Below, in pieces: positions 11,702 through 32,488 of a stretch of 64,000 nucleotides of DNA. Made by a program: the position numbers and the translations under genes. Position 1 is the stretch's first letter; each line of letters opens with the position of its first letter. This stretch comes from Scenedesmus sp. PABB004. Taxonomy: Eukaryota. A model generated the notes under the pieces. That model made no database searches, was not told the origin of the DNA, and saw only the letters and a program-made list of their open reading frames with translations. The DNA lies in assembly GCA_014905635.1 (NCBI GenBank), contig JABVCE010000012.1, forward strand, positions 310,001 through 374,000, in the 5' to 3' direction.

Positions 11702-12366
11702 CTCGACAGCCGAGCGGCTAGAGTGCGAGGCGTGGGCCACCGCACGGCTGGGCCAGGACCGGAGCCCGACACGCCAGCAGCAGCGGCGGTGCAGGGCGCA
11801 GCGAGCGCCGCCCGCCCGTCTGCCCGCGCCGTGCCGCCGAGGAGGCTCCCGCGCGCCGCCCACAGCCTCCGCCCTCAGCGCCCTGCCTCGCTCCTTGTCT
11901 CGCACCCACACAAGCGCCGGCCGCGGCCCTCTGTCTTGAAAGCCCGCCGCTGCCGTTCGAATCGCAGCCGCCCGCCCCCGCCCGCGGCGCGCCCCTGGCC
12001 AGGCGGGGCGCGGGCCTGCGGGCGCCTGACGGTCGGGCCGTGCCGCCCAGCGCAGCGCCAGGCGAGCCGCGCGCGCGTGCGGGCGGTGAGCAGGGCAGTG
12101 GCTGGCGGCGGGCAGTGCTGCTGCGCGGCGCCCGCTGCGGGCGGCGGGGGCTGCGGCGGTGCGCGGCGGGCGGGCGTGTGGCGTGGAACGCCGGGTCTGC
12201 GCGCCCCGGGTGCCGCTGGCAGGCCCGCCGCCGCGCCGCCGCGCCGGGGCGGCGGGGGCGGGCGCCGCGCGATGCTGCTGCTGCGCTCACGCCGCCCGCG
12301 CACTCGCGCCCGCTGCCGGTGCCCGCCTGCTGCTCCCTGCTGCCCCGCAGGGCCCCAGGCCGTGCC

Positions 12367-13305
12367 ATGTCTGCTGCGCTGTCAGGTGTCTCGCTCAGCG
12401 ACCTGGCGCTGGCGGTGGACGCGGCATCGAGGTGCGGGCGTGCTGCTGCCGCTGCCGCCCCGGGCCGGCACCCCTGGCCTTTCTATGCCTGGCGCGGCAC
12501 GCGCTGCCCACAAGCGACTGCTCCGGAAGCAGGCGGCGCCTCACCAGTCGCCCAACCGCCGCGCCCCACCCGCGCCGCCAGCAGCACCTGGCGGAACCTG
12601 CCGGAGCCGCTCGTGCTCCACGTCCTGAGCTTCCTCCCGCCGGCCCTGCAGCCGTGGGCCGCCAAGCTCGTCTGCAAGGCGGCGCGCGAGCGCTTCCGCG
12701 GCGCGACGGTCGTCGCGCTGCGCTGCCCCGAGCTGCCGCTGGCGGCAGTGCAGGAGGCGTGGCGGGATTTGCACGGTGGCTGGGTGCAGGAGAGCGTGCT
12801 GGCCGAGGCGCGCGCTGCGTGCGGCGACGTCGCGGGGCTGGCCTGGCTGCGCGTCGCCGGCTGCGACATGGATGACTCTGTGTTCAAAGCAGCAGCGGAG
12901 CACGGCCAGGTCGCCGTGCTGGAGTGGGCGCGCGGCAAGGGGCTGCGCATTCGGCGCTTGTGCGAGTTCGCAGCCGAGGGCGGGCAGCTTGCGGTGCTGC
13001 GCTGGGCGCGCGTGCAGACGCCACCGCTGCGCTGGGGCAACCATGTGTGCTCTGAAGCTGCGCTGCGCGGCGACCTGGAGATGCTGCGCTGGGCGCGCGC
13101 CCAGGCGAAGCCCGCGCCGTGGGACAAGGAGGTGTGCCGGATCACCGCTGTGCACGGGCACCTGGAGGCGCTGCGCTGGCTGCGCGCCAACGGCTGCCCG
13201 TGGCTGCGCGCCGAGTGCGAGAGCGACGCAGCGCGCGGCGGCCACGAAGCCGTGGTTGCGTGGATCCGGGCGCAGCCCGCGGCGGCGGACGATGGCTCTG
13301 ATTGA
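12367..13305 (+). CDS. F-box-like + ankyrin-like repeat protein (U3), apparently intact
   Basis: MSAALSGVSLSDLALAVDAA, intron (AG|GTGCGG), WRNLPEPLVLHVLSFLPP...LVCK, four core repeats, LRWLRANGCPW. Confidence 0.85.
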   Translation: MSAALSGVSLSDLALAVDAASRCGRAAAAAAPGRHPWPFYAWRGTRCPQATAPEAGGASPVAQPPRPTRAASSTWRNLPEPLVLHVLSFLPPALQPWAAKLVCKAARERFRGATVVALRCPELPLAAVQEAWRDLHGGWVQESVLAEARAACGDVAGLAWLRVAGCDMDDSVFKAAAEHGQVAVLEWARGKGLRIRRLCEFAAEGGQLAVLRWARVQTPPLRWGNHVCSEAALRGDLEMLRWARAQAKPAPWDKEVCRITAVHGHLEALRWLRANGCPWLRAECESDAARGGHEAVVAWIRAQPAAADDGSD

Positions 13306-14147
13306 CGTCGATCATCTACTTGGACGGGGACTAGGATTGGGGCGAGGCAGGCTCGAGGCTTGGTGCGTGCGCGGGGCGCTGCCTACAGCGTGTGGTGCGC
13401 GCGTGCGTGGCGAGGGAGAGGGAAAAGGGAAGCTGGCGGCGGCGAGGCGGCGCGTGCTGGCAACCGGCCGACCGCGCACGCAGCGCGCCTGGGCGGGTTG
13501 CCCTCTTGCGCGACCACCCGGCGCTGGCAGCGGTGGCACGTCGCCGCGCCGTGCCCCGCAGCGGCCGCACGCGGGCGGCGGTGCAGGCCCAGGGCGCAGG
13601 CGCCGCCCGGCCGGCTGCCCGCGCCGCCGCCGAGGAGGCCTCCCGCGCGCGCCGCCCCGCCGCCCACAGCCGCCGCCCTCTCAGCGCCCCTGCCGCACAC
13701 ACGCACACACGAGCGCCGGCCGCGGCCCTCACAGCTCCCGCACGCGCCGCGCCGCCGCTGCGCAGCGCCCGCCCCCGCCCGCGGCGCGCCCCTGGCCCGG
13801 CGGGGCGCGGCCGTGCGGGCGCCTGGTGACTGGATCGTGCCGCCCAGCGCAGCGCCAGGCGAGCCGGGCGCGCGGGCGGGGAGGGCGGCAGGCGGGCCGC
13901 GCTGCGCGGCGCCTGCTGCGGGCGGCGGGGGCACCGGCGGTGCGCGGCAGGCGGGCGTGTCGCGTGGACCGGCGGGTCTGCGCGCCTGGAGCGCCGCTTG
14001 CAGGCCTGCCGCCGCGCCGCCGCGCCGGGGCGGGGGCCGGGCGCCGCGCGCTGCTGCTGCTGCGCTCACGCCGCCCGCGCGCTCGCCCGCTGCTGCCGGT
14101 GCCCCGCCTGCTGCTCTCTGGTGACCCGCAGGCTGTCAGGTGGTACT

Positions 14148-15245
14148 ATGTCTGCTGCGCCGGCGGGCAAGCGGCACGCCGGGCCGACCACGCACGCGGG
14201 GGTGGGCGAGGCAGCGGCAGCAGGCGAGACACCGGCTGGGGCAGAGGCGGCGCCGTGGTGGGTCCGCTGGCTGCTGCTATTAGTGCACCCTGGCTGGTGC
14301 TGCCTGGCACGGCACGCGCTGCCCACAAGCCACCACCGCCGGCAGCGCGCGCCGCCTGACAGCTTGCCGCCTGCCCTGCGCGCCCCGCCCCGCGCCGCCA
14401 GCAGTCCGCTGCCAGAGCTGCCGCAGCCCCTCGTGCTCCACGTCCTGAGCCTCCGGCTGCCGGCCCTGCAGGCGTGGGCCGCCAGGCTGGTCTGCAAGGC
14501 GGCGCGCGAGCGCTTCCGCGGCGCCACGGACATCTCGGTGCGCTGCCCCGAGCTGCCGCTGGCGGCGGTGCGGGAGGCCTGGCGGGCGGCGCAGGGTGAA
14601 GGGTGGGAGCAGCAGCGGCGGCTGGCCAACGCGCGCGCGGCGAGCGGCGACGTGGCGGGGCTGGCCTGGCTACACAGCGCCGGCTGCGACATGGGCAGCG
14701 ATGTGGGTTACACAGCCGCATTACACGGCCAGCTCGCCGTGCTGAAGTGGGCGCGCGACGAGGAGCTCAACCTGCGGGGCGTGGGCCGGGCAGCGGCGGA
14801 GCACGGCCAGCTCGCTGTGCTGGAGTGGGCGCGCGGCGAGGGGCTGGACCTGGGGGGCGTGTGCCACGCAGCAGCCGCGAGCGGGCAGCTGGGCGTGCTG
14901 CGCTGGGCGCGCGCGCACACGCCGCCGCTGCCCTGGGGCGACCGGGTGTGCTTCTGCGCTGCGGCGCGCGGCGACCTGGAGGTGCTGCGCTGGGCGCGTG
15001 CCCAGGAGGAGCCCGCGCCGTGGGGCGAGCTCACGTGCGAGGCGGCGGCTCGCTCCGGGCAGCTGGAGGTGCTGCGCTGGCTGCGCGCCAACGGCTGCCC
15101 GTGGTGGCGCCGTGTGTGCGAGCGCGTGGCGGTATGCAATTGCCACGAGGCCGTGGTCGCGTGGATCCGGGCGCAGCCTGACTCGCCGGACGAGGGCGGC
15201 GGGGCGAATCGGCTGTGGTGGGTGGCGGCCTCTGTAGGCTGTTGA
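14148..15245 (+). CDS. F-box-like + ankyrin-like repeat protein (U4), five core repeats
   Basis: ATG 14148, conserved intron, LPELPQPLVLHVLS, extra HGQLAVL repeat. Confidence 0.85.
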   Translation: MSAAPAGKRHAGPTTHAGVGEAAAAGETPAGAEAAPWWVRWLLLLVHPGWCCLARHALPTSHHRRQRAPPDSLPPALRAPPRAASSPLPELPQPLVLHVLSLRLPALQAWAARLVCKAARERFRGATDISVRCPELPLAAVREAWRAAQGEGWEQQRRLANARAASGDVAGLAWLHSAGCDMGSDVGYTAALHGQLAVLKWARDEELNLRGVGRAAAEHGQLAVLEWARGEGLDLGGVCHAAAASGQLGVLRWARAHTPPLPWGDRVCFCAAARGDLEVLRWARAQEEPAPWGELTCEAAARSGQLEVLRWLRANGCPWWRRVCERVAVCNCHEAVVAWIRAQPDSPDEGGGANRLWWVAASVGC

Positions 15246-15559
15246 GTGCGCGCGGTGCGCGCAGAGTTGGCGGGGCGGGCGGCCAGGGAGCGCGCTGGCA
15301 ATCGGCTGACCGCGCGGGCCTCGAGGAGCTCCTCGCGGGGCACGGCCCTTACGCGGGGGGGGGGGGGGGGGCAGCGCAGCGCGCCTGGCAAGTTGCCGTC
15401 GCGCCACGCGCACGTGCCGCGGGCCGCCGCGCGCCGCGCGCCGCTAGCGCCCCACCGCGCCCGCCGCGCCCGCTGCGGCGCGCGCGGGCGCGCCGCCGCC
15501 GCGGCGCGGGCCCGCGCCGCCGGCGACCTGGCCCGGGCCCGGCCCGCGGCGCCGCCGCG

Positions 15560-17148
15560 CGGCGGCGGGGCGCGGTGGTAGGAGCTGCTCCACGCGCCGC
15601 CGTCGCGGGCGTAATAGTCCATTGGATAGTCAGTCGGGTGCTGGGGGCCAGCAGCAGCCGCGCCGGGATTGAGGCCGCCGCCGTCGCCGCGCCCGCCGCC
15701 GGCGTCGCCGGCTGCATCGCCGCCGCCGCCGCCAGCCCCGGGCGCGTCGCCGCTGCCGCCGCCGGCGGGCGCCGCCTCCCACCAGCCCGGCACGCGGCGC
15801 AGCGCGACAAGGGCCTCGTACGGCGTGAGCACGGGCGCGGCAAAGCCCTCGCCCCAGTCGATGGAGAGGCGCGGGCACGCGACCTGCACCCACGCCTCCA
15901 CGCTCGGCATGGCGCCGAGCTTGGCCTGCGTGACCTCACTCAGCAGCACCACCGTCACGCGCCCGCCGCCGCCGCCGCGCCGCTCGGCCAGCGCGGTGCG
16001 CAGCAGCTCAAGCGTGCGCGGGTTACCCTGCCGCCCGAGCGTGCCGAGCACGAGGCCCCAGCGCGACGCGCCCGCCGCGGCGGCGATCGCGGCGCGGCGC
16101 GCCGCGCGCATGCCGGCCTGGTCGTACGTCTCGCGCGTGAGGCGCCGCCCGTAGGGATCATACCTGCGCGCCGCACGACCCGCGGGCGGCGGCGGTGGTA
16201 TGTGTGTGTGCGTGGTGGGGCGGGGCGAGGGAGGGGCAAGGGAGCGCGGCGCGGGCGCTGCAGCCGCGGGGCGCGCGTGCGCGGGCACGCGGGGCCCCGT
16301 GAGTGCGCGCCGTGAGTGCGGGGGCGCGCCTGAAGGCGGGCAGGCGGGGGTTGGCAATCATCATCGCCTCCAGGTGGAACCGCCCGTCGGCGACAAACAC
16401 CAGCGCGTCGGCCGGCTGCGCGCGGCGCGTGCAGCGTCGGAGGTGCGCGCGGGGCGGTGAGGGCGGGGAGGGAGGGCGGGAGGAGGCACGCGGGCCGCGA
16501 GGCGGGCGCGCCGGGGACGCAGCGCGCGGCGCGCGCTGCGCGCCTGCGTGACGACCGGCGCAGTGCAGCCGAGCACCTCGCCCGGCGAGAGCGGGCGGCA
16601 CTTGGGCACGGACAGGCTGGGGTAGTCTGGCGCCAGCCGCGCCCGCGCGAGCTGCACGGCGCTCGAAAACTGGATCGTGCCCGCCAGCACCAGCGCCGGC
16701 GGCTGCTCCTGCGGCTGCTGCTCCTGCTGCTGCAGGTCCGCCGTCAGCAGCTGCTGCTGCTGGTCCGCACACTGCCCCTGTCCCTGCCCCTGCTGCTCCT
16801 GCTGCGCCTGCTGCTGCTCCTGCGCCTCCCCGCCGCCGCCGAGCGCGCCGCCGCCGGCGGCGCCGCCCGCGCGCGGCGGGAACGCGGCGCGCACGCTGTC
16901 CACGAGGTGGTCCACGTCGATCGCGATGTCAACGAAGACGTAGAGGCAGGGAATGACAGTCACGTCGAGCGGGACGAGGCAGGAGTGGCCGTAGTGGACC
17001 AGCAGGTCGGCGCCGAGCGCGGCCGCGGAGAGGTCGTCGACGCAGCACGCGCCAAACGTGACGTCGCCGAGGATGAGCGCGTGCGCCACACCTGGGGGTT
17101 GGTTCGGACACACGGGCATGGGGGAGGGGGGGGGGGCGCGGGTGAGTG

Positions 17149-17187
<39 letters not shown>

Positions 17188-17243
17188 GGGGGGGGGCATC
17201 AGCGCGCGGCGCCGTGCGCGCTGGTGCCGCGCTGGCGACCCCA

Positions 17244-17275
<32 letters not shown>

Positions 17276-17819
17276 GCCCCCGGCGCACCCGCGAAGCGCG
17301 TGAGTATGTCTGCGATGACGCACGCATACATGAGCAGGCCCTCGGGGAACTGCAGCGCGACGACGCGCGCGCCCGCGGAGCGCACGCGCCACACGGTCTT
17401 CGGGACCTCAAAGTTGTAGTTCCCTGGCAGCGCCGCCGCCGCGGCCGCGAGGCCGGGGTCTTGCAGGATGGAGTCGGGGACCTGCTGCTGCCGCACGACG
17501 CGGTGCGGCGGCGCCGGCGCCGGCGCCGCGGGCGCCGCGTGCGGCACGAGCGCGCCGCCGCCGCCTGCGCGCCGCAGGGGGTGGAAGGCGGGCGGGGCAC
17601 GGGCGGGCGGGCGCCGGTGGGCGGCGGCGGCCGGCGCGGGCCGTGCGCTCGCCGGGCGCGCAGCGGCTGCGCCGCGCCGCGCCGCGCCCGCCGGCCGCTG
17701 GCGGGGCGCCGCGGCGCGTCGTGTGCGGAGCCCGGGCGCCCGGCAGCCGGCCGCGCCGCACCAGCGGCCCTGGCGGAGCCCGAGAAGCGCTGCGGCGGCG
17801 CGTCGCCGTCGTCGGCCAT
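15560..17819 (-). CDS. DPH1: Diphthamide biosynthesis protein 1
   Basis: [92 protein letters not shown]. 3' end not resolved. Confidence 0.93.
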
Positions 17820-18525
17820 CTGCGCCTGCCCGCCGCCAGCGGCGGCGCGCACGGCGGGCTGCGCGCAGCAGGCACGGCTTGCAGCTCACTCTGGCGCTCG
17901 CGCGTGGGAGTGCGGCGGCGGTCGAGGAGCGAGCGGCTGGCAGCGGCGGCGGCAGCAGCAGACGCTGCGGCGGCTGCGGCGGCTGTGTGCAGTGTTGTGG
18001 CGCAGTGCGGTGGCGGCTACTGGCGGTCTGGGGAGGTGGACGCGCGGGCAGCGAGCAGCCGACACGCCGCGCGCGGCGCAAACCGCCCGCGGCGGCCGCC
18101 GCTGCTCTCGGCAGCGCACGTCGCGCGGCGGCGCCGCACGCTGCTGCTGCTGTTGCGCGGCGGCGCGCGCTGCCTGGAGCCGCGGCAGGCCGTCGTCGGC
18201 GGCGTCGTCGGCGAGCTCCGCGGGCGTGTCGGTGACCCGCGTCGTCGGCAGGCGCGGCCTCAGCGAGCCTGGTGCCGCCCCCGCCGCCAGGCGCCCGGCG
18301 CTCTCGGGTGACGGCTTGCGTCAGTGCGAGCTCGACTCACGCGACCAGAGCGGGCGTCGCGCAGGCGCAGCCAAAGCCCCACCTGACAGCGCCTGCTCAG
18401 TTGGCGCCGCCCCGGGCCCCGGGCGCCCGCCCCCGTGGTCCCGACGGAACACCCTCCCCGTACGACGCGGAGCAGCAGCAGCGCGGGGCCGCGCGAGAGA
18501 GAGGGTTGTTGCACGCCGCAGCAGC

Positions 18526-20292
18526 ATGGCGCACAGCAGCCTCGCCGGCCCGCTGGGCGGGCGGCTCGCCCCCGCGGCGCCGCGCCCGGGGCGCGCCCGG
18601 GTCGCCGCGCCCGGCGCCGCGCCGCCGCGGCGGCTGCTGTGGGCGGGGCGCCTGCCGGGGGCGCCGGGCCATCGATCCCGGCTCTCGGTGGCCGCCAGCG
18701 CCTCCGGCAACGGCAGCGTGCTGCCCTGGCAGGCGGCCATGGACGAGGTGAAGAAGCGGAAGGACCTCAAGTCCATCATGATCATCGGCGCGGGGCCCAT
18801 CGTCATCGGCCAGGCGCGCGCTGCTGAAGCGGCGCCGCCGCCGCGCGGCCCCCGCAGCAGCAGGCGGCGGGCCCCTGACGGCCGGCCGGGCCGCCCCGCC
18901 GCCGCGCTCGCAGGCGTGCGAGTTTGACTACTCCGGGACGCAGGCGTGCAAGTCGCTGAGGTGCGGCGGCGCGGCGGGCGCGGCGGCAGTCGTGCGGCGC
19001 GGCGGCTGCACGCCCGCCCTGCACCCCGCGCTCCTCTGCCCCTCCCGCGCACCCCGCGGCACGCCCACGCCCCTGCCTCTGCCCCCGCCCGCGCCCGCAC
19101 CTCCCCCCCTCCGCCCCCCAGGCAGGAGGGCTACCGCGTGATCCTGCTCAACTCCAACCCGGTGAGCGCGGGGGTTAGAGGGATGTGTGTGTGGGTGTGT
19201 GTGTGGGTGTGGGTGTGGGTGTGGGTATTGGGGGGGGGGCCCTTTGGGAGGGCAGCGGCGGCGGCGGCGGCGGCGGCGCGCGCGTCTGTGCATCTCGGCC
19301 GACTTCGCTGCCGGCGCGAGTGTGCACAGACGCGCGCGCCGCCGCTGCGTGCGGCGGGGGTGACCACAGGCGCGCGCCGCCGCCGCGGCGCTGCCCGCCG
19401 CTTGGGCGCACGCGCGCCGCTGCGGTTGCTGGCGTGCGTTTCCGACGCGCGCCACTCCTGCAGCGGCGCGCGCGCGTGCCTGCGCCGTCTCTGCACTCCA
19501 GCGGCCGCCGCCGCGCAGCGCAGCTCCACCCCCAACCTCGCTGGTGCACACAGACGCGCGCGCGCCGCCGCCGCCGCGGCGCTGCCAGCTTGAACGCGCG
19601 CACGCGCGCACGCGCGCCGCTGCAGTGAAGAAGGGGTCTTTGTCCTGTCGACGCGCACCGCTCCACTGCAGCGGCGCGCGCGCGTGCCTGCGCACTCTGT
19701 GCACTCACGCGGCCGCCGCCGCGCAGCGCAACCCGTAAACCTCCGCCCCCTCCCTAAACCTCCGCCCCCCTCTTCCTCCCCTAAACCCCGCCCCCACCCA
19801 GGCGACGATCATGACCGACCCGGGCATGGCGGACGCGACGTACGTGGGGCCGATGACGCCCGAGCTGGTGGAGCAGATCCTGGACAAGGTGCGGCACAGG
19901 GCTGCGCGCGGCGGGCGGGGCGCTGTGTGGGGCTGGGGCCTGTGGGCGGGCGGGGGCTGTGTGGGTGGGCCCAGCCCAGCCCCGTGGGACTGAGGGTGTG
20001 GGTGCGGGGTCGGGGGGGGGGGGGGCAGCGAGCGAGGGGGCAGTGAGCGAGTGCCGGCGCCCACGCCGCCGCGCCGCGGCCGCCGCCGCGTGTTCCCCCG
20101 CGTCGCCGCCCGCGCAGGAGCGCCCGGACGCCATCCTGCCGACCATGGGCGGCCAGACGGGGCTCAACCTCGCCAAGAACATGGTGCGCCTGGCGGTGCA
20201 GCAGCAGCAGCGCGCGGCGCCGCCCAGGCGCGGCGCCGCGCCTGCGCGGGGCCGCCAGGGCGCGGCGCGCGCCACAGCTGCCTGCGCGCGCT

Positions 20293-20342
<50 letters not shown>

Positions 20343-23300
20343 TCTCCCTCTCTCTCCTGCCGCGCCCCCCTGCCCTAAACCCCGCGCCCGCCCTCAACCC
20401 TGCACCCCAAACCCTGCCAGGCCGAGAGCGGCATGCTGGCCAAGTACGGCGTTGAGCTCATCGGCGCCAAGCTGCCCTCCATCGACCGCGCGGAGGACCG
20501 GGAGCTCTTCAAGCAGGCGATGACGCGCATCGGCCTCAAGACGCCGCCCAGGTGGGGCCGCGCGGGGGGGGGGGGGGTGTGGCAGGGGTTTAGCAGGGGT
20601 TCAGGGGGCGCGCGGGGGGCTAGGCAGGGGCTGAGGGCGCAGGGCCGCGCGCCGTGCAGACGGGGCGCGCGCCGCCGCGCCGGCCGGTCACCGGGAGCGC
20701 GCGTGACCGGCCCGGCTCCTCGTGACCGGCCGGCGCGGCGGCGCGCCCCGCCGCGCGCGCCGCCGCCCTGCGCCTCGCCTTCCCCTCCCGCGCGCCTCCA
20801 CCCACCCACCCACCCGCCCACTCACCCACGCCCCCCGCAACCCTCGCTGCACCCGCCCCCGCGACAGCGGCACCGCGGCGACGATCGAGGAGGCGCTGGC
20901 CATCGCGGCGGAGATCGGGACGTTCCCCCTCATCATCAGGCCCGCCTTCACGGTGAGCGCCGGGGCGGGGGCTGTTAGTCTGTTATTTTGTTAGTTTGGT
21001 AACGCCTGCGGAAGGGAGGGCGGGAGGGCGCGGGGGCACGGCCGCGCGCAGCAGGCGGGGAGAGGGCGCCCTGCGCTCACACCCACCTACCCGCCCACCC
21101 ACCCACGCACCCACCCACCCACCCACACACCCACGCACACTCACACACGCGCACACTCACACACACGCGCAGCTCGGCGGCACGGGCGGCGGCATCAGCT
21201 ACAACATGGAGGAGTTCAAGGAGCAGGTCAAGGCCGGCATCGACGCCTCCATGACCGACCAGGCGCGCGCGCAGAGCGGCGGCGGGCGTTGCGTTGTGCG
21301 TGGTGTTTGTCTCTTTTGACGAGCGAGCGCGCTGCGCACTGCCGCGCGCCGCGCGGCGGCTGCAGCCCTCCCTTCCAACTCCTCCCCTGCTCCCCCAAAC
21401 CTTCCCGCGCGCCCCCCGCTACACCCCCCCCCCCCCCCACACACACACACACACGCACACACACGCACGCGCGCAGGTGCTGGTGGAGCAGTCGCTGATC
21501 GGGTGGAAGGAGTTTGAGCTGGAGGTGATGCGTGACCTCAAGGACAACGTCATGATCGTGTGCTCCATAGAAAACGTGGACCCCATGGGCGTGCACACCG
21601 GTGCGCCGTGTGGCGCGGCGCAGCGGCGGCGGCGCGGCGGGGCTGAGGGTTCAGGGTTGAGGGGGCGCGGGGTCGGACAGGGCTGAGGGGGGCTCGGGGG
21701 CGCCGCGCTGCGGCCTGCGGTGGTGCTGCTCGCGCTCAGCTGTCCCCCCCCCCCCACACACACACCCTCCTCACGCACCGCCACCCACACACCGACCCAC
21801 CCACGGCGGGGCCCTGCAGGCGACTCCATCACCGTCGCGCCCGCCCAGGTGCGCCGCGCCCGCCTCCCTCCCGCCGCCTCCACTCTACCCCGCGGGCGCG
21901 GCGCCGGCGCCCCCCCCGCGCTCCCGAGCCCGCCCCTGCTAAACCACTCCTAAACCCCTCCTAAACCCTCCCCGCCCAGACGCTGACAGACAAGGAGTAC
22001 CAGCGCCTGCGCGACGCCTCGCTCGCGATCATCCGCGAGATGGGCGTCGAGTGCGGCGGCAGCAACGTGCAGATGGCAATCAACCCCAAGGACGGTGCGC
22101 GGCACGCGGCCGCAGCCGCAGCCGCAGCTGCGTCGCCGCCGACGCGGCCGCGGCGGGCGGTCTGCGGCGCGCCGCCCTCCCCCGCGCGCGCTCCTCTTTC
22201 CCCCACGCGCGCCCGGACGCCCTGGACCCTGGCCCCCCGCCCGCCCCCTGCTTAACCCTGACACTCCCCTGTTAAACCCCTAAACCCTGCCGCCGCCGCC
22301 TGCCAGGCGAGGTGATGATCATCGAGATGAACCCCCGCGTGAGCCGGTCGTCTGCGCTCGCGTCCAAGGCGACAGGCTTCCCCATTGCCAAGATGGCCGC
22401 CAAGCTCGCGGTGGGCTACTCCCTCGACCAGGTGCGCCGCCGTGTGTGCGTGCGCGTATGTGCTGTGCCTCTCACCCCCGTGCGTGGGAGGGGTGACCCG
22501 TGCGTGGGTGTGTGGGCCACCCCTCCCTCCCTGAACCCCTGCATCCCTCACCCCTCCCGCCCTCCACCCCTCCCCCTCCCTCCCTACACCCCTGCACCTC
22601 CCTAAACCCCGCACCCCTGCACCTCCCTAAACCCCGCACCCCCAAACCCTGGCGCCGCCGCCGCGTCCGCCCGCCCGCGCGCCGCGCCAGATCGCCAACG
22701 ACATCACGCGCGCCACGCCCGCGTCGTTTGAGCCGAGCATCGACTACATCGTGACCAAGATCCCCAAGTTTGCGTTTGAAAAGTTCAAGGGCACCAAGGC
22801 AGAGCTCACCACGCAGGCGCGCTGTGTGTGTGCGTGTGTGCGTGTGTGTGTGTGTGGGGGGGGGGGGGTGGTGCTGGCGCGGGGCACGGGGCGGGCGCGG
22901 CGAGGGGTCGGCGAGGCGCCGACCGCCGCGGCCGCCGCGCGCGCCTCTCTCTCTCTCCCTCGCGCCGCCGACTGCCTGCCTCGCTCTGAACCCTGACCCC
23001 CCCCCCCCCCCCAAACCGCGCAGATGAAGAGCGTGGGCGAGGTCATGGCGATCGGGCGGACGTGGCAGGAGTCGCTGCAGAAGGCGCTGCGCGGCATGGA
23101 GTCGGGGCTCGACGGCTGGTCGCTGCCGCCGGGGTGGAAGCACCTGCCGGCCGACCAGCTCGCATACAAGCTGCGCGTGCCAAACCCCGACCGCATGATC
23201 ATCATGAAGCAGGCGCGCGGCCCGCGCGGGGTTCAGGGGTTTAGGGGGGTTGAGGGGCACAGGGCTTAAGGGTTTTGCGGCGGGCGCTCGTGGCGGTTTC

Positions 23301-26300
23301 AACAGGGTTCAAGGGGGCGGCGGGGACGCGGCGGCGGGGGCGGCGGACGCGGCTCTGGCGCCGCCCCGGCGCCCGCCGCCCGCCGCCCGAGCCCCCCTCA
23401 ACCCTGAACCCCGCGCGCCCCGCCCCGCCCCGCACACCCTCAACCCTGAACCCTACACCCCCCGGCCGCCACACCCCGCCAGGCGTTTGAGGACGGCATG
23501 ACCAAGGAGGAGCTGTTTGAGCTGACCGCGATCGACCCCTGGTGGCTCGCGCAGCTCGCCGAGCTGCACGCGACCGAGGTGCGGCGCCCGCCCGCCCTGA
23601 ACCCGCCCGCCCGCCCGCGCGCGACGAGGGGCGGGGGCGCGGAGGGGAGGGGACGGGAGGGAGGGCAGGGCTTAGGAGGCAGGGAGGGAGGGGGGAGGGG
23701 CCCGCCGCCGCCGCCGCGCGCATGGGGGCGCTCCGTTTGGGTGGCCACAGGTAGACGGGCACGCGGTCTGTGATGTGCGGCGTGCCCGTCCACCTGTGGC
23801 CACCCAAACGGAGCGCCTGCACGCGCGCCGCGCGCGGCAGCAGGCAGGCCGCACAGCCGGCAGCCCCCCTCTCCCCGGACCTCCCCGCACCTCCCCAAAC
23901 CCTGGCCCACCCCGCACTGCTCCGCGCCACACGCCACCCTCCACGCCCTCCGCGCCGCCGCGCCCCGTCGCCGCAGATGTGGCTGCGCGAGCAGACGCTG
24001 CACGGCCTCGGCGAGGAGGAGATGCGCGAGCTCAAGTCGCGGGGCTTCAGCGACGCCCAGATCGGCCGCCTCACCGGCAGCACCATGCTCGCCGCGCGCG
24101 CGCACCGCCGCGCGCTCGGCGTCACGCCGTCGTTCAAGCGCGTCGACACGTGCGCCGCCGAGTTCCAGGCGCGTGCGGGGTTTTTTTAGTTAGTTTGTCA
24201 GGGGGCTGCGGGGCTGAGGGGCGCTGCTGCTGCGGCGGGGCGGCAGGCCTCTGCTGCACGGCGGCGGCCCAGCGCGGCGGCGCTCCGCCGCGGGCTCCCC
24301 CTCCCGCCCTTAACCCTGCCGCCCCCGCGCCCCCTAAACCCCGCCAGGCCAACACGCCGTACATGTACTCCACCTACGACGGCCCCTGCGAGAGCGAGCC
24401 CACGACCGGCCGCAAGGCACGCCGCCGCGGCGCGCGACGCCACCGCGCCCGCCCTCGCCGCGGCGCCGGGAGAGAGCCCTGAGCCGCCGCCGCCCTCCCC
24501 GCATGCACACACACCCGCACAGGTGCTCATCCTGGGCGGCGGCCCCAACCGCATCGGGCAGGGCATCGAGTTTGACTACTGCTGCTGCCACGCCTCCTTC
24601 GCGCTGCGGTGCGCGCGGCACAGCGCGGCGCGGCGCGGCGTGGGGGCTGCCGCGCGCAGCAGCGGCCCGAGCCCTGCCTGCTCCCTCTCCCCGCCTCCGC
24701 CGCCCTGCCCCGCTTCCCTCTAAAACCCTTGCCCCCGCCCCGCTAAACCCTGACCCCCCAACCAAAACCCAAAACCCCGCCGCGCAGCGCCGAGGGCTTT
24801 GAGACGATCATGATGAACTGCAACCCCGAGACCGTGTCGACCGACTACGACACCAGCAGCCGCCTCTACTTTGAGCCCATCACGCTCGAGGACGTGCTCA
24901 ACGTCATTGAGGTGAGTTACAACTGTTATTTTTTTTGTTACTTTTGTTGTTACTTTTGATTTTTGACGGCCCGAGCGCGTGGCGTTCGGGGGCGGTGCCC
25001 GCGCCCCGCCTGCGCGCCCGCCGCCGCTCAGCGCAGCCCCGCCCGCCCCGCCCGCCCCGCCCGCGCAAACGCCGCGCGCGCAGGTGGAGCGGCCGGAGGG
25101 CGTGGTCGTGCAGTTTGGCGGGCAGACGCCGCTCAAGATCAGCACCGCGCTGCAGCTCGCGCTCGACGAGAACCCCATCCCCACGGGTGAGGGCGCGGGG
25201 GTTCAGAGTTTGGTGGCGCGGGGCGCACACGCGCGCGCGCTGCACAGCTGCCTTGAGGAGCCCCGCGCCGGGGGCTGCCCCGCCGTCGCGCCGCCGCCGC
25301 CGCCGCTGCGTCGGCCCCGGCCCCCGTCTTTCTCACCCCCGCGTCGTGCCCCGCGCCGCGCAGCGAGCGGCAACGGCAACGTGCGCGTGTGGGGCACGCA
25401 GCCGGACGCGATCGACGAGGCTGAGGACCGCGACCGGTGCGGCGGCGCGCTGCGCTGAGCCGCGCGGCGCGGCGCGGCGCGGCGCGGGGCCGCGGGCGTT
25501 GTCCATGCGCCCGCGCCCGCGCGGCCGGCGCCCGCGCCCCTCCTCACCTCCACTCGTCTCTCCCCGTTCGATCCCCCGAGACCTCGCCCCTAAACCCCGC
25601 CCCGCGCGCCCGCGCGCCCGCTAAACCCAGGTGGATGGCGCTGCTGACGCGGCTCAACATCAAGCAGCCCGCGGGCGGCATGGCGCGCAGCGAGGGCGAG
25701 GCGTTTGACAAGGCCCATGCGCTCGGCTACCCCGTGATGGTGCGCCCCAGCTACGTGCTCGGCGGGCGCGCGATGGAGATCGTGTACAGCGACGACGAGC
25801 TCAAGACGTGAGCCGCCGCGGGGGGCTGGCGGCGGCGCGAGGTTTTGAGGGTTTTGCAGGGTTTTGGGGGGCTGCGCGGCGGGGGCGTTGCGGGGCGTTG
25901 CAGAGCTGCGCGCTCCGCCGTGGACCCGCGCCGCGCCTGCCGCCCGCCCTCCCTCGCGCTCGCGCGCCCGCCCTCTCCCCCCCCCCCCCGCCCGCCCCGA
26001 CAACCACCCACACAACCCCGCCCGCTCACAAAACCCCCCGCCAACCCCCGCACCACCCCGCGCCACCCCGTGCCGCCGCCCCGCAGCTACATCACGACCG
26101 CTGTCGAGGTTGACCCCGACAAGCCGGTGCTGGTGGACAAGTACCTGGACCGCGCGGTGGAGCTCGACGTCGACGCGCTCGCCGACAAGGACGGCAACGT
26201 GGTCATCTGCGGCATCATGGAGCACATCGAGCAGGTGGGGCTGGCGGGCGGTTTAGCAGGGATGTGGCTGGCGTTTAGGGGGGGGGGCACGGGGGCGGGG

Positions 26301-28709
26301 TTTAGTAGGGAGCGGGGCTCGGGCTTTGGGGCATCTGCCGGATCATGGGGGTTAAGGGGGGCAGGGGGGGGGGGGCAGCGGCTGTGCGCGCGCCGCTCGG
26401 GCCGGGCTGTGGGAGGCGTTGAGAAGTACTGGACGGCTTCTGCGGGCCGAGCAGTTCTCCTCAACGCCGCCCACAGCCCGGCCGGGCGGCGCTGCAGCAG
26501 CAGCAAGGCCCCCACCGCGTCGTCGGGCGGCCGGCGGCGGCCCCGCGCCGCCGCGCTGCGCATGCCAGCATCCTGGCAGCCCGCCGGAGGGGCGGCGGCG
26601 GCGCGCGGGGTTTGTTTGACTGGCGCACGCGCGGCGGCGCGCCCCCGCTGACGCCTGCCCTCCCTCCCTGCCCCCCGCTCCCCCTGCCCCCCGCACGCGC
26701 GCGCGCCCCCGCGCAGGCGGGCGTGCACAGCGGGGACAGCGCGTGCGCGCTGCCGACGCAGAGCATTCCCACGACCACGCTCAACACCATCCGCGAGTGG
26801 ACGGTGCAGGTGGCCAAGGCGCTCAAGGTGGTGGGGCTCATCAACATCCAGTACGCCATACAGGTGCGGCGGCTGGGGGCGTGTGTGTGTGGGGGCGTGT
26901 GCGTGTGTGCGTGTGCACGTGCGTGTGTGGGGGCGTGTGCGTGTGTGGGGGCGTGTGCGTGGGTGGATGTGTGGGGAGGGTGTGTGCGTGTGTGGGGGGT
27001 GAAGGGTGGTTCGTGCGGGGCGAAGAGGCGGCTGCGCTCCTCCCCGCCGCCGCGGGCCGCGCCGCGCCGCGGGCCCTTCTTACCCCCCCCCCCCTGAACC
27101 GCTGCCCCCCCCCCCAAACCCCGCGTTTAACCCCCGCAGGACGAGCAGCCGTACATCATCGAGGCCAACCCCCGCGCCTCGCGCACCGTGCCCTTCGTCG
27201 CCAAGGCGGTGCGGCGCGGCGGCGCGCGGGCGCGGCGCGCGGGCGCGCGGGGCGGGCGCAGGCGTGAGAGCGGCGTGCGTGTGCGAGTTCGCCTCGAACA
27301 GCTCTGCTCAGCGGCGGAACTCGCACACGCACGCCCCTCTCACGCACGCGCCTCCCTCCGGCAGCGCTCGCGCTCCCCCCAGCTCAGCTAGACCCCCGAC
27401 ACCCGCACACGCACGCACGTCTCACGCCTCCCTCCCATCATCACACCTCCCCCATCATCACCCCAACCCCACCCACCCACACCCACACACCCACACCCAC
27501 ACACTCACCCCCCCCCCCCCCCCAAACCCCCCCCCCCACCAACCTCCCCCCCAGGTGGGTCACCCCATCGCCAAGTACGCGAGCCTGCTCATGAGCGGCA
27601 AGACCCTGGCCGACATCGGCTTCACCAAGGCGCGCGCCTGCCTTAGGGTTTAGGGTTTAGGGCTCAGGGCTCAGGGCTCAGGGGAGACGTTGTTGACCCT
27701 CCCCTTTCTCTCAAACCCCCCCCCCCCCCAGCACCACCACCACACGCAACACACACCCATCTGCCCGCACCCACCCGCACCCACACACACCCACCTGCCC
27801 ACACACACGCCCACACACCCACCCACCCCCACACACCCGCCCACGCGCGCGCAGGAGCCCACGCCCGCGCACGTGGCGGTGAAGGAGGTGGTGCTGCCCT
27901 TCAGCAAGTTCCCGGGCGCCGACACGCTGCTCGGCCCAGAGATGCGCTCCACCGGCGAGGTGCGACGCGCGTGGGGGGGGGGGGCAGGGAGGGGCGCGGC
28001 GCAGGGGCGGGGGCGCTGGCGGGGGCGCGCGCCGGGCGGGAGGGGCCCGGCCGCGCCGCGCTCCCCGGGCTCGCGCCCGCTGGCCGCCGAGCCCCGCTGG
28101 GCCCCGCCGCTGGGCCCCGCCGCCGAGCCCCGCTAAACCCCGCCGCTGCCGCGGCCCCCCAAAACCCTCGCCGCCAGGTGATGGGCATCGACTACGACTT
28201 TGCCTCCAGCTACGCCAAGGCCCAGATCGCGGCCGGCCAGAAGCTGCCCACCGGCGGTGCGCGCGCGCGCGCCTGCACGCGCCGCGCGCCGCGCGCGGCG
28301 GCACCCCTCTCGGCTCGCGCGCGCGCGCCCCACCAAACCGCGCTCCACCTGCCCCCCTCCTAAACCCTGCACCCCCGCAGGCAAGGTGTTCATCAGCATG
28401 GCCGACAAGTACAAGGCCGACGCGGTGGGCATCGCAAAGGCGCTCGTGGACATGGGCTTTGGCGTCGTCGCGACGCGCGGCACCGCCGCGACGATCATGA
28501 GCGCGGGTGGGTGGGCCCCGCGCAGCGGGGCGCGCCGCGCGCTGGCGGGGCTGCGGCGGGGCGCGCCGCGGCGGCTGCGTGCACGGACCACGCGGGCCGC
28601 GCGCTCGCTGCGTGGCTGCGCGGGGCTGGCCGTGCCGCCGCGCCCTCTCTCCCTCTCCCTCCCTCTCCCTCCCACTCCCTCCCACTGCTTCTCAATCCCT
28701 CCCTCCCGC

Positions 28710-28743
<34 letters not shown>

Positions 28744-28939
28744 CCCACACCCTCCCACCCCCCCCCAGGCATCAAGTGTGAGAGCATCTTCAAGATCAGC
28801 GAGGGCCGGCCCAACCCCGCCGACCTGCTGAAGAACGGCGACATGGGCATGATGATGATCACCAGCGGCGGCGACGAGCCGGACCTGCGCGACGGCAAGG
28901 ACCTGCGCCGCCTCGCGCTCACGCTGCAGGTGCGACGCC

Positions 28940-28976
<37 letters not shown>

Positions 28977-29446
28977 GGGGCGCGCGGCGCGGCGTGCGCG
29001 GCCGCACGCGGCCGCGGCTGGCGGCGCGCGCGCCGCGGCCGGCGCGGGCGGGCGTTGAGGGCAGCCGCACCCACACCCACACCCACACCCTCACACCCAC
29101 ACCCGCACACGCACGCCCACCCACACCCACACACACGCCCACACACACGCGCCCACACACACGCGCCCACACCCGCCCATCCCCCCCCCCCCTCTCACCC
29201 CCCAGGTGCCGATCATCACGACCATTGCGGGCGCGCGCGCGACGGTGCAGGCGCTGCGCGCGGTGCGCGCGGGCCCGCTGCAGCAGGTGCCCCTGCAGCA
29301 CTACTTCCCTGATTACAGGTGAGCGGACATACGGGGCGGCGGCGCGGTGGCGCAGCGCCTGCGGGGTGTAGGGGGTGGCTGGGCGGGGCGCAGGCGTGCG
29401 GGGCGGGCGCGCGCTGCTCTCCCTCGCCCCGCCCCGCTCCCTCCCT

Positions 29447-29477
<31 letters not shown>

Positions 29478-29595
29478 CCTACCTCTCTCTCTCCCCCTCT
29501 CTCACTATCTCACTCCCTCTCCCCCCCCCCCCACCCCCCACAGGGATGACAGCAACTACCTCATGACCGGCATTCCCGAGCCCACGCGGCAGTGA
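18526..29595 (+). CDS. carB: Carbamoyl-phosphate synthase large subunit, probable plastid transit peptide, ~31 introns
   Basis: [113 protein letters not shown] domain ATRGT. N-terminus is Ala/Arg-rich. Confidence 0.97.
27642..27683 (+). repeat. Interstitial telomere-like tract TTAGGG(TTTAGGG)2(CTCAGGG)3 in a carB intron
   Basis: Read directly from the sequence. Confidence 0.85.
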
Positions 29596-30071
29596 AGTGG
29601 CTCGAGGCAGAGGGCTCAACAGGGCTCAACAACAGGGCTCAACAGGGTTCAAGGGTTCGAGGGCGCGCGCGCGGGGAGAAGGAAAGGTCCTGGGAGGGGG
29701 CGCTGGCAGCGGCGGCGGCGAGGGGCACTGGGCAGGGCGCTGCGGCGGCCAGCGGGGCAGGGGGGGGAGCAGCGGCCGGCCGGCGGGGCAGGGCCGCGAC
29801 GCGGCGCGGAGGGAGCGAGGGGCGGAGCGAGGGAGCTGGGGGCGCGCTGCGCGGCACGGGCGCCCGGCGCGGGCGCTGCTGGACTGAACCCCACACGGCG
29901 GCCGGGCGCAGGGGCGCGTCGCTTTTTCTGGCTCGGGAGCCTCCCGGCCGGCGCGCGCGCGGCGCGCGCTGAGTAAAAACGCTCGCGGAGGGTCCATGTC
30001 ATGGCGCCGTTGCTGGGTGCTGGCGGCGGCGGCACGTCGCCGCGCCGCGCCCACCCGGCAGCGGCGCCACG

Positions 30072-32380
30072 CGGGCGGCGGTGCAGGGCCCAGGGCGCAG
30101 GCGCCGCCCGGCCGGCTGCCTGCGCCGTCGCCGAGGAGGCCCCCCGCGCGCGCCGCCCCGCTGCCCACAGTCGCCGCCCTCTCAGCGCCCCTGCCGCACA
30201 CACGCACACACGAGCGCCGGCCGCGGCCCTCACAGCTCCCGCACGCACCGCGCCGCCGCCGCGCAGCGCCCGCCCCCGCCCGCGGCGCGCCCCTGGCCCG
30301 GCGGGGCGCGGCCGTGCGGGCGCCTGGTGACTGGATCGTGCCGCCCAGCGCAGCGCCAGGCGAGCCGGGCGCGCGGGCGGGGAGGGCGGCAGGCGGGCCG
30401 CGCTGCGCGGCGCCTGCTGCGGGCGGCGGGGGCACCGGCGGTGCGCGGCAGGCGGGCGTGTCGCGTGGACCGGCGGGTCTGCGCGCCTGGAGCGCCGCTT
30501 GCAGGCCTGCCGCCGCGCCGCCGCGCCGGGGCGGGGGCGGGCGCCGCGCGCTGCTGCTGCCGCGCTCACGCCGCCCGCGCGCTCGCGCCCGCTGCTGCCG
30601 GTGCCCCGCCTGCTGCTCACTGGTGGCCCGCAGGCTGTTAGGTGGCACCATGGCGTCTGCGCCGGAGGGCAAGCGGCGCGCCGGGCCGACCACGGGCGCG
30701 CGGGCGGCAGCAGCAGCGGCCGCGGGCGAGGCGCCGTGCAGCGCAGACGCGGCGGCGAGGTGGGTCCGCTGCTGCTGCTGCTGCTGCTGGCGCTCCCTGG
30801 CTGGTGTTGCCTGGCGCGGCACGCGCTGCCCACAAGCCACCACCGCCGGCAGCAGGCGCCGCCTGACCGCCCGCCGCCCGCCCGCCCGCCCCACCGCACC
30901 GCGCCGCGCCGCCAGCAGCCCGCTGCCGGAGCTGCCTGAGCCCCTCGTGCTTCACGTCCTGAGCCTCTGGCCGCCGGCCCTGCAGGCGTGGGCTGCCAAG
31001 CTGGTCTGCAAGGCTGCGTGCGAGCGCTTCCGCGGCGCCACGGTCGTCTCGCTGCGCTGCCCCGAGCTGCCGCTGGCGGCGGTGCAGGAGGCGTGGCGGG
31101 CGGTGCAGGGTGACAAGCGGGTGCAGCAGGGGCAGCGGTGGCAGCTGGCAGGGGCGCGCGCGGCGTGCGGCGACATGGCGGCGCTGGCCTGGCTGCGGGG
31201 CGCCGGCTGCAACATGGGCGGCGTGGGCCGGGCAGCAGCGGAGCACGGCCAGCTCGCCGTGCTGGAGTGCGCGCGCGGCGAGGGGCTGGACCTGGAGTAC
31301 GTGGCCTGGGAAGCAGCATTCGCCGGCCAGCTCGCCGTGCTGGAGTGGGCGCGCGGCGAGGGGCTCGACCCGCAGCTCGTGTGCGAGGGCGCAGCCGAGG
31401 GCGGGCACATGGCGGCGCTGCGCTGGGCGCGCGATCGGACGCCGCCGCTGCCGTGGGCTGGGAAATGGGTGTGCAGGTACGCTGCGCAGCGCGGCGACCT
31501 GGAGATGCTGCGCTGGGCGCGCGCCCAGGACGAGCCCGCGCCGTGGGACGAGGGGGCGTGCGGGGCGGCGGCTCTGCACGGGCAGCTGGAGGCGCTGCGC
31601 TGGCTGCGCGCCAACGGCTGCCCGTGGGAGCGCAGCAACTGCGAGGTCTGCGCAGCACACAACGGCGACCAGTCGGTGGTCGCGTGGATCCGGGCGCAGC
31701 CCGCGTCGCCAGACGACGGCTCTGATTCTGAAGGTTCCGATGATCTAAACTCGGACGCCGACTGAGATCAGGGCGCGGCATGTGGTGTGCGCGTGGCGAG
31801 GGAGAGGGAAGGGAAGTTGGCGGCGGCGAGGCGGCGCGTGCTGGCAACCGGCCGACCGCGCACGCAGCGCACCTCGGCAGTCGCGGTCCTGCGCCGGGCG
31901 CTGGTAGCGGCGGCACGTCGACGCACCGTGCCGTCCCGGCAGCCACGGCACGCAGGCGGCGGTGCAGGGCCAAGGGCCCAGGCGCCGCCCGGCCAGCTGC
32001 CCGCGCCGCCGCCGAGGAGGCCCCCGCGCCGCCCCGCCGCCACACGCAGCTGCCGCCTCAGCGCCCCTGCCACGCACACACACTCGAGCGCCGGCCGCGG
32101 CCCGCAGCGCCCGCACGCACCGCGCCGCCGCCGCGCAGCGCCCGCCCCCGCCCGCGGCGCGCCCCTGGCCAGGCTGGGGTAGACCTGCGGGCGCCTGACG
32201 GCTGGTCTGACCCGCCCAGTGCAGTGCCAGGCGAGCCGGTCGCGCGGGCAGGCGGGAGGGCAGCGGCGGGCGGGCAGCGCTGCGCGGCGCCCGCTGCAGG
32301 CGGCGGGGGCACCGGCGGTGCGCGGCGTAGTGTGTTGGGTGATCACCCGGTCCTGCGCGCCTCGGGCGCCGCTGGCAGGC
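30072..32380 (+). repeat. Head-to-tail pair U5 + leader-only U6
   Basis: Leader ~30072, gene, spacer ~31770-31954, then a second leader that diverges near 32380. Confidence 0.9.
30650..31765 (+). CDS. F-box-like + ankyrin-like repeat protein (U5), five core repeats, ~319 aa spliced
   Basis: ATG 30650, intron 30760-30915, LPELPEPLVLHVLS...LVCK, short acidic tail. Confidence 0.87.
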   Translation: MASAPEGKRRAGPTTGARAAAAAAAGEAPCSADAAARWVRCCCCCCWRSLAGVAWRGTRCPQATTAGSRRRLTARRPPARPTAPRRAASSPLPELPEPLVLHVLSLWPPALQAWAAKLVCKAACERFRGATVVSLRCPELPLAAVQEAWRAVQGDKRVQQGQRWQLAGARAACGDMAALAWLRGAGCNMGGVGRAAAEHGQLAVLECARGEGLDLEYVAWEAAFAGQLAVLEWARGEGLDPQLVCEGAAEGGHMAALRWARDRTPPLPWAGKWVCRYAAQRGDLEMLRWARAQDEPAPWDEGACGAAALHGQLEALRWLRANGCPWERSNCEVCAAHNGDQSVVAWIRAQPASPDDGSDSEGSDDLNSDAD

Positions 32381-32488
32381 TCAGGCCGCCGCTGCTGCCG
32401 CTGCCGGCGGCCGGCCGCCGCTGCTGCCGCTGCCGCCGGGGCGCCGACGCCCGCCGCCCTGCTGCTCGCGCGTGGCCAGGGCCGCGCG

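What the first reader, a model, noticed from the sequence alone, without database searches (positions are those of the whole stretch)
13572..30600. Non-coding leader is more conserved than the coding exon between U4 and U5
Seen: leaders 13572-~14100 and 30072-~30600 are near-identical. A stretch of about 200 bp from GGTGACTGGATCGTG to GCCGGGGCGGGGG looks identical by eye, yet their ankyrin exons differ at many amino acids. This inverts the usual pattern. Inference: strong positive selection on the exon, or recent conversion of the leader or exon swapping.
Basis: seen in the sequence. Interest (0 to 1): 0.7.

Follow-up and report, generated by a model that had tools for sequence, protein, structure and literature searches.

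The report
Gene-converted leader in F-box–ankyrin gene cluster
Two members of a large family of fast-evolving F-box–ankyrin genes in a green alga share a recently copied piece of their non-coding front end, which is ordinary gene conversion, but the family itself looks like a shuffled recognition repertoire placed non-randomly among housekeeping genes.

Summary
Observation confirmed. U4/U5 leaders match at 364 of 366 bases (13671-14036 / 30172-30537, a 277-base identical run), while exon 2 differs at 19 of 125 fourfold sites and 80 of 255 residues. The leader is not a conversion hotspot: 11 exact runs of 178-354 bases among 69 units fall in leader (4), exon 1/intron (3), F-box (2) and ankyrin (2) parts, 8 of 9 pairs within 30 kb. 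The units belong to about 74 F-box-like/ankyrin genes strewn over ~585 kb of one contig of a GC-rich green alga. Separately, ankyrin surface codons are under diversifying selection (second-position diversity 0.59 against fourfold 0.12-0.15), repeats are swapped blockwise, and the N-terminus docks on the genome's SKP1 in a model. Unexpected: 47 of 53 blocks lie just downstream of a same-strand host gene, and all 11 trailing leader copies run into a same-strand neighbour, suggesting the leader is a promoter captured by housekeeping genes. No RNA evidence was available.

The parts
13671..14036 (+). U4 conversion tract (core); inferred 5'UTR exon and 5' part of intron 1
   Evidence: 364/366 identical to 30172-30537; 19 alignment columns with alleles found in <15% of the other 67 units shared with U5 between 13677 and 14007
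30172..30537 (+). U5 conversion tract (core)
   Evidence: next best copy in the genome is 92% over 13671-13870 (40 of 103 candidates scored)
13520..14147 (+). U4 non-coding leader: inferred core promoter (~13540-13676), 5'UTR, intron 1 (candidate donors CAG|GCGAG ~13859 or GTGCGC 13940; branch CTCAC ~14065; acceptor CCCGCAG 14131)
   Evidence: indels 132 of 721 multiples of 3 vs 64 of 91 in F-box exon; signals conserved in 58, 45, 64, 41 of 69 units; no Rfam match near threshold; promoter role inferred
14148..14257 (+). U4 coding exon 1 (MSAAPAGKR...)
   Evidence: sequence; GCC/ACC-ATG context conserved; public models of paralogues use the same exon (P0001, P0005, P0057)
14258..14404 (+). U4 intron 2 (predicted; GTGGGT...CTGAC...GCAG)
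   Evidence: absent from 3 public paralogue models, retained in P0003
14405..15245 (+). U4 exon 2: F-box-like domain, linker, ankyrin-like repeats
   Evidence: Ank_4 E=5e-10; AF2 pLDDT 88.7; ankyrin folds; SKP1 model 0.70 vs control 0.01
30016..30649 (+). U5 leader
30650..31765 (+). U5 gene (exon 1, predicted intron ~30760-30918, exon 2)
31897..32488 (+). Trailing leader copy with no ankyrin gene; runs through an acceptor-like GGCCAG into the ATG (32489) of a TGT/queuine tRNA-ribosyltransferase-like host gene
   Evidence: 81% to U4 leader; TGT profile positions 2-48, E=0.031, weak
44411..44974 (-). Trailing leader copy ahead of a short-chain dehydrogenase host gene (ATG 44311)
   Evidence: adh_short E=1e-8, profile 2-79
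11783..13306 (+). U3, tandem unit directly upstream of U4
176..1778 (+). Family unit (frame broken in exon 2)
7717..9088 (-). Family unit (3'-truncated)
35010..36721 (+). Family unit; nearest outside relative of the U4/U5 tract
45224..48664 (-). Array of family units (one intact, one broken, one partial)
60333..63893 (-). Two tandem intact family units
15581..17500 (-). Diphthamide-synthesis host gene convergent with U4 (start of the host-gene stretch between U4 and U5)
   Evidence: Diphthamide_syn E=6e-36 on the last exon; strand calls

Best explanation
A recent non-allelic (ectopic) gene conversion copied about 370 bases of the non-coding leader between U4 and U5, two otherwise averagely related members, 16.5 kb apart, of a ~74-member F-box-like/ankyrin family. 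Mechanism (inferred from established recombination biology): a break in one copy was repaired on a nearby paralogue. Such patchwork exchange acts on every part of the unit and reshuffles ankyrin repeats, while diversifying selection on the repeats' binding-face codons keeps the proteins different; the proteins most likely are SCF (SKP1) substrate adaptors. Shown: tract, mosaicism, site-specific nonsynonymous excess. Modelled: SKP1 binding. Inferred: direction and age of the conversion, promoter role of the leader, expression, biological targets.
For: Tract 364/366 vs fourfold sites 106/125 (p=1e-8). Trees: U4+U5 form a pair in the tract (support 0.99, distance 0.013; next relative 0.22) but are 0.536 apart in exon 2 (family median 0.531). 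19 shared rare-allele columns in the tract vs 2 in exon 2. No third copy above 92%. 11 exact runs of 178-354 bases in 9 pairs, in all regions, 5 of 9 pairs on opposite strands, 8 of 9 within 30 kb vs 9.8% of all pairs (p=7e-8). None of 2346 pairs is >=95% in all five regions; regional identities correlate weakly, rho 0.00-0.43. Blockwise repeat sharing with sharp edges. Surface codons: second-position diversity 0.585 (CI 0.51-0.65) vs fourfold 0.122 at the same codons and 0.148 in framework; split-half pN 0.54 vs 0.10. SKP1 model: 0.70 against best control 0.01, runs agree in >=86% of contacts, partner pLDDT >=81; mark reached by 51 of 78 solved and 2 of 108 mismatched pairs; a textbook pair, so the pass may rest on likeness to solved complexes.
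Against: No reads span leader-exon junctions, so the assembly is not checked there. Conversion cannot be told from duplication followed by exon replacement on one genome. Tract lengths resemble short-read fragment sizes. The family-wide leader (median 0.86-0.885) is somewhat more conserved than intron 2 (0.70-0.80) and fourfold sites (0.855), so some constraint adds to it. U4 itself has no Pfam F-box hit at E<=1 and its first 50 residues fold at pLDDT 54-61 alone. Surface positions were named from the ankyrin motif after I had seen the variability profile; the split-half test is the unbiased control.
Confidence: 0.82

Rival explanations
1. Exon swapping: U5 (or U4) arose as a recent whole-unit duplicate and then took everything 3' of ~14040-14140 from other paralogues by crossover or long conversion.
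For: Sharp 3' edge near the intron-1 acceptor; chimeric units are common; U5 intron 2 is 139/153 to unit 345839.
Against: The tract also has a 5' edge: 13575-13670 shows 5 differences in 96, four of them U5-private. No donor exists for either exon 2: nearest tree distances 0.33 (U4) and 0.42 (U5). Upstream flanks differ.
Confidence: 0.1
2. Assembly or polishing artefact: the two leaders were homogenised in the consensus.
For: Leader ~86% GC; tract sizes 180-350 bases; 27 of 74 units fail the intact-frame test, some at G runs, so the consensus may hold errors.
Against: Two internal mismatches and unique flanks; contig of 1.24 Mb; tracts cluster by physical distance (8 of 9 pairs <30 kb), which read mapping ignores; paralogues at ~86% would not normally cross-map; two 151-base contigs of run X1 match U4 exon 2 without a difference (depth 2, no junction bridged).
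Confidence: 0.05
3. Recent whole duplication with strong positive selection on the exon alone, or strong purifying selection on a functional leader RNA/element.
For: Surface residues differ at 21 of 24 positions vs 47 of 205 elsewhere; conserved blocks in the leader.
Against: Synonymous and intron-2 divergence are 13-16%, the family average; the shared tract carries alleles rare in the family, which constraint would not give; no Rfam family; off-cluster copies have more diverged leaders.
Confidence: 0.02
4. The unit is a non-autonomous transposon (Helitron/Replitron-like) whose leader is a conserved terminus.
For: Dispersed, both strands, local clustering, trailing direct copies of the leader.
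Against: No fixed ends and no target duplication: longest shared word at own ends 6.69 vs 6.76+/-0.18 shuffled, 54 blocks; leader starts and ends vary; splice signals explain the invariant blocks. It would not explain a pair-specific tract.
Confidence: 0.05

Closest known systems
Ectopic gene conversion between clustered paralogues (review PMC3924832; passages read)
   Same: Patchwork homogenisation of non-coding and synonymous sites, stronger at short distance (here leader identity vs distance rho -0.36).
   Different: Here the paralogues are not a tandem array but interleaved with host genes in both orientations over ~585 kb.
Expanded F-box families of nematodes and plants (PMC8120010; passages read)
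   Same: Clustered, conserved F-box plus positively selected substrate-binding domain, many broken copies.
   Different: Substrate domain is an ankyrin-like repeat of the W-x-x-x-x-C-x-x-A-A type; green alga; shared leader and blockwise repeat exchange.
Podospora HNWD non-self recognition genes (PMC1805685; abstract read)
   Same: Repeat units exchanged between family members, repeat number varies (3-7 motif counts in 47 intact units), selection on a few surface residues per repeat.
   Different: No NACHT/HET domains; ankyrin not WD40; repeats within one protein are not homogenised; function untested.
Chlamydomonas NCL cluster on chromosome 15 (PMC8226300; passages read)
   Same: Species-level expansion of a helical-repeat family into one chromosomal cluster in a green alga.
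   Different: NCL are RNA-binding proteins; at least 32 genes; this family is F-box/ankyrin with about 74.
F-box/ankyrin proteins of protists, giant viruses and Chlamydiae (recalled; PMC4209131 seen as search listing only)
   Same: Domain order and repeat type; homologues at 30-45% identity in Raphidocelis, Balamuthia and unnamed contigs, 2 of 120 listed with a precomputed F-box.
   Different: Here intron-containing nuclear genes among housekeeping genes; no viral context was seen in the genes checked.

Membership tests
Ectopic gene-conversion tract | Bounded tract far more similar than flanks and synonymous sites | tested here: met
   364/366 vs 91/96, 104/110 and 106/125
Ectopic gene-conversion tract | Tree incongruence and shared rare alleles | tested here: met
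Ectopic gene-conversion tract | Non-reciprocal transfer with known donor | not testable with these tools
   needs orthologues from other strains; comparison with unit 345839 (325/357 vs 327/357) does not give direction
F-box protein (SCF adaptor) | N-terminal F-box motif | tested here: inconclusive
   F-box-like in 40 of 62 alignment members at E<=1 (best 3e-6), U4 not among them; three helices at pLDDT 54-61
F-box protein (SCF adaptor) | Binds SKP1 through that motif | tested here: inconclusive
   Model passes: 0.70 vs best control 0.01, interface on SKP1 113-155; supports, does not show; like complexes are solved
F-box protein (SCF adaptor) | Targets substrates for ubiquitination | not testable with these tools
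   no substrate known
Ankyrin repeat | Helix-turn-helix repeats matching ankyrin profiles and folds | tested here: met
   Ank_4 in 62 of 62; DARPin/Espin hits (TM 0.46-0.54); repeats are shorter (26-29 residues) than canonical
Diversifying-selection repertoire (HNWD/F-box type) | Nonsynonymous excess at binding-face codons with background synonymous rate | tested here: met
   no codon-model likelihood test was run
Diversifying-selection repertoire (HNWD/F-box type) | Role in non-self or pathogen recognition | not testable with these tools
   inference by analogy only
Diversity-generating retroelement / targeted hypermutation | Adenine-specific or locally raised mutation including synonymous sites | tested here: not met
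   fourfold difference 0.158 at surface vs 0.154 framework; all four bases vary. Reverse transcriptase not searched.
DNA transposon / Helitron-like element | Fixed termini or target-site duplication | tested here: not met
Known structured RNA | Rfam match in the leader | tested here: not met
   one match at E=0.37, 19 bits vs gathering 42.7, outside the tract

The most novel reading that the evidence does not exclude
The cluster is an SCF-based recognition repertoire of a green alga: about 74 F-box/ankyrin genes diversified by repeat shuffling plus selection on the binding face, which spreads by inserting ragged fragments of its own tandem arrays just behind host genes' 3' ends, in the same direction, and hands its leader to downstream housekeeping genes (TGT, SDR, EAF, BRE-like) as their promoter, so that leader conversion also rewires host-gene regulation.
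Probability: 0.3. Interest if true: 0.75.

Novelty: new variant of a known kind. Interest (0 to 1): 0.45.

Why it matters
The flagged contrast is an ordinary conversion tract and a useful warning: in such families non-coding identity between two copies does not date the genes. The context matters more. Green algae have few described variable recognition repertoires; this one has the hallmarks (conserved adaptor domain, about sevenfold nonsynonymous excess at binding-face codons, repeat shuffling, many broken copies) and seems largely missing from protein databases (5 named paralogue models among 120 listed hits). Its placement bias and the apparent capture of its leader by housekeeping genes give a testable model of how a family spreads through a compact genome without breaking its neighbours.

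Tried and rejected
No RNA holder listed, so transcription, start sites and introns are unverified. Contigs of four metagenome runs laid on 13000-32600 gave no piece bridging a leader-exon junction. GCAAC as polyadenylation signal: common upstream of leaders (60 of 81 vs 13 reverse) but not enriched after 30 predicted host stops or clearly in 12 family-free convergent junctions: not claimed. The 18/30 vs 1/28 junction count reuses the orientation data and is not independent: not used. A run-length conversion test gave 313 hits because it ignores uneven conservation: only exact runs >=150 bases and rare alleles were used. The motif GCCAGGCGAGCCG occurs 106 times genome-wide; the off-cluster count is near a rough compositional expectation, so it does not support a GC donor. 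Coding leader rejected. Direction of conversion unresolved. IQ-TREE run failed; FastTree used. Five of 74 units were dropped from the DNA alignment for lacking a leader or end, 27 of 74 from codon tests, 4 of 58 blocks from orientation counts. Earlier findings: three look-ups, nothing.
Full report
OBSERVATION. The window is 79% GC and is G000:C5:310001-374000 of a 40-Mb, 80-contig genome; a SKP1 exon 97-98% identical to Sphaeropleales records makes it a green alga. U4 and U5 align from 13520/30016. Identity by segment: 91/96 (13575-13670), 364/366 (13671-14036), 104/110 (to the ATG at 14148), 85/110 (exon 1), 128/147 (intron), 248/286 (F-box/linker); the ankyrin C-part is 80.9%. A 277-base run is identical. 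Exon 2 differs at 80 of 255 residues.

THE FAMILY. In C5:1-664000 there are 87 leader hits and 75 F-box-exon hits, 74 units, between about 44 and 630 kb, on both strands, singly or in short arrays between other genes. The 40 scored leader candidates of 269 were all on C5; a protein search found a few copies on C10, C25, C77, C6, C7, C3, five of which still carry a leader, more diverged (medians 0.81-0.85) than within the cluster (0.885). 47 of 74 units have an intact exon 2; some breaks lie in G runs and may be consensus errors. The leader is non-coding: 132 of 721 indels are multiples of three against 64 of 91 in the F-box exon; Rfam gives nothing. Its invariant blocks read as splice signals (CAG|GCGAG 58/69, GTGCGC 45/69, CTCAC 64/69, CCCGCAG 41/69), matching the GTGCG donors and CGCAG acceptors visible in this genome's SKP1 gene. 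Intron 2 is absent from three public paralogue models and retained in one. All gene structure is predicted.

CONVERSION, NOT SELECTION, EXPLAINS THE CONTRAST. U4/U5 exon 2 has pS 0.159 (dS 0.18), pN 0.190, and 19 of 125 fourfold sites differ, the family median; the leader differs at 10 of 557 (Fisher p=1e-8). Among 2346 pairs of 69 units the leader ranks 1 (rank 2 by pairwise alignment), the F-box part 897, the ankyrin part 939. U4 and U5 share 19 columns with alleles in <15% of other units between 13677 and 14007 (fewer independent events, as some are adjacent) against 2 in exon 2. Trees pair them in the tract (support 0.99, distance 0.013) but not in exon 1/intron (0.43) or exon 2 (0.536; median 0.531). 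No third copy exceeds 92%. With 2 differences in 366 bases the event is roughly thirty times younger than the exon split (inference). Direction is unresolved.

THE LEADER IS NOT SPECIAL IN THIS. Eleven exact runs of 178-354 bases join 9 pairs: 4 in leaders, 3 in exon 1/intron 2, 2 in F-box/linker, 2 in ankyrin repeats; the leader is 35% of the unit. Five pairs are on opposite strands; 8 of 9 lie within 30 kb against 9.8% of all pairs (p=7e-8). The longest joins copies 195 kb apart. No pair reaches 95% in all five regions, and identity falls with distance most in non-coding parts (rho -0.36 leader, -0.12 ankyrin), as described for ectopic conversion (PMC3924832, passages). Pairs share whole repeats with sharp edges. 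Family-wide the leader (0.86-0.885) is a little more conserved than fourfold sites (0.855) and clearly more than intron 2 (0.70-0.80): modest constraint, more conversion, or both.

SELECTION IS REAL BUT SEPARATE. At 24 codons placed by the ankyrin motif (xx-V-C-xx-A-A-xx-G; that these face the ligand, as in DARPin libraries, is recalled, and I chose them after seeing the variability profile) pN is 0.56 against 0.14 in the framework, with fourfold difference 0.158 against 0.154. Without the poorly aligned first repeat, second-position diversity is 0.585 (0.51-0.65) against fourfold 0.122 (about sevenfold after correction). A split-half control gives pN 0.54 for columns picked in the other half against 0.10. 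A normal synonymous rate argues against local hypermutation. U4 and U5 differ at 21 of 24 such residues and 47 of 205 others.

THE PROTEIN. Ank_4 in 62 of 62 aligned members; F-box-like in 40 of 62 at E<=1, not in U4. The model (pLDDT 88.7) is a helical solenoid with a low-confidence three-helix N-terminus; best folds are ankyrins. U4 residues 1-95 of exon 2 with this genome's SKP1 scored 0.70 against a best control of 0.01; runs agree in at least 86% of contacts, partner pLDDT at least 81; the mark was reached by 51 of 78 solved and 2 of 108 mismatched pairs (eukaryotes: 39 of 65, 2 of 126). F-box-SKP1 is a solved textbook pair, so this shows likeness, not binding. The likely role is SCF substrate adaptor, as in nematode and plant F-box expansions with selection on the substrate domain (PMC8120010, passages); the exchange-plus-selection pattern resembles fungal HNWD genes (PMC1805685, abstract).

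UNEXPECTED PLACEMENT. With a self-trained coding model (two control genes called correctly), 47 of 53 classifiable blocks (54 examined, 4 of 58 skipped) have a same-strand host gene upstream; sites are convergent 23 against divergent 3 (p=9e-5), and in tandem sites the block is co-oriented 21 against 3 (p=3e-4). All 11 blocks ending in a partial leader face a same-strand gene, against 13 of 40 without (p=5e-5). Such copies abut the apparent starts of TGT-like (E=0.031, weak), short-chain dehydrogenase, EAF and BRE-like genes (the BRE match starts at profile position 48, so that gene may be cut). For the TGT-like gene nothing but the family 3' end and leader lies between the U5 stop and its ATG. 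Inference: the leader's 5' part is a promoter, and ragged array fragments survive where they leave or supply a terminator and promoter to neighbours. Ends are not fixed and there is no target duplication. Neighbouring blocks with duplicated flanks are not fully independent, and strand calls are statistical.

ARTEFACT. Not excluded without reads, but internal mismatches, unique flanks and distance dependence argue against it; two 151-base contigs from run X1 match U4 exon 2 exactly.

NOVELTY. Searches listed no description of such a family in green algae; term searches in the main texts of PMC13315243 and PMC12571836 found no F-box mention; their supplements were not read and may list it. The nearest algal parallel seen is the NCL cluster (PMC8226300, passages). 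Verdict: the flagged feature is a conversion tract of a known kind; the family around it is a new variant of known adaptor repertoires with an unexplained placement rule. Interest 0.45.

Noticed in passing
G000:C5 44k-630k; window 31897-32489 and 44974-44311: Partial leader copies after the last unit of 11 blocks run into same-strand neighbours, several of them conserved host genes (TGT-like, SDR, EAF, BRE-like): possible promoter capture.
   Followed up: partly
G000:C5 54 family blocks: 47 of 53 blocks sit just downstream of a same-strand host gene; convergent sites 23 vs divergent 3; co-oriented 21 vs 3 in tandem sites.
   Followed up: partly
L036 (G000:C5:57651-58269, minus): A leader plus the family's exon 1 appears fused to an unrelated reading frame: a possible chimeric gene.
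   Followed up: no
G000:C5:181.9-182.3k vs 378.0-378.4k: The longest exact run (354 bases, leader) joins copies 195 kb apart on opposite strands.
   Followed up: no
G000:C5:209469-211729 and 219573-221325: Two blocks share upstream and downstream flanks, suggesting a segmental duplication that includes host DNA.
   Followed up: no
L048:8219-8467 (G000:C5:178219): BRE-like exon after a trailing leader matches the profile only from position 48; the block may have landed inside the gene.
   Followed up: no
G000:C5:108078-111540: A block with pieces on both strands, an inversion breakpoint inside a unit; a public model joins two units across it (P0001).
   Followed up: no
family exon 2, 27 of 74 units: Frame breaks, several at G runs; true pseudogenes and consensus errors cannot be told apart.
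   Followed up: partly
upstream of leaders and after unit stops: GCAAC/GCAAT lies within 150 bases upstream of 60 of 81 leaders; looks like a 3'-end signal but tests on host genes did not support it.
   Followed up: partly
L091-L094, L098 (C10, C25, C77, C5:721k): Off-cluster copies keep leader and exons, with leaders more diverged than inside the cluster.
   Followed up: partly
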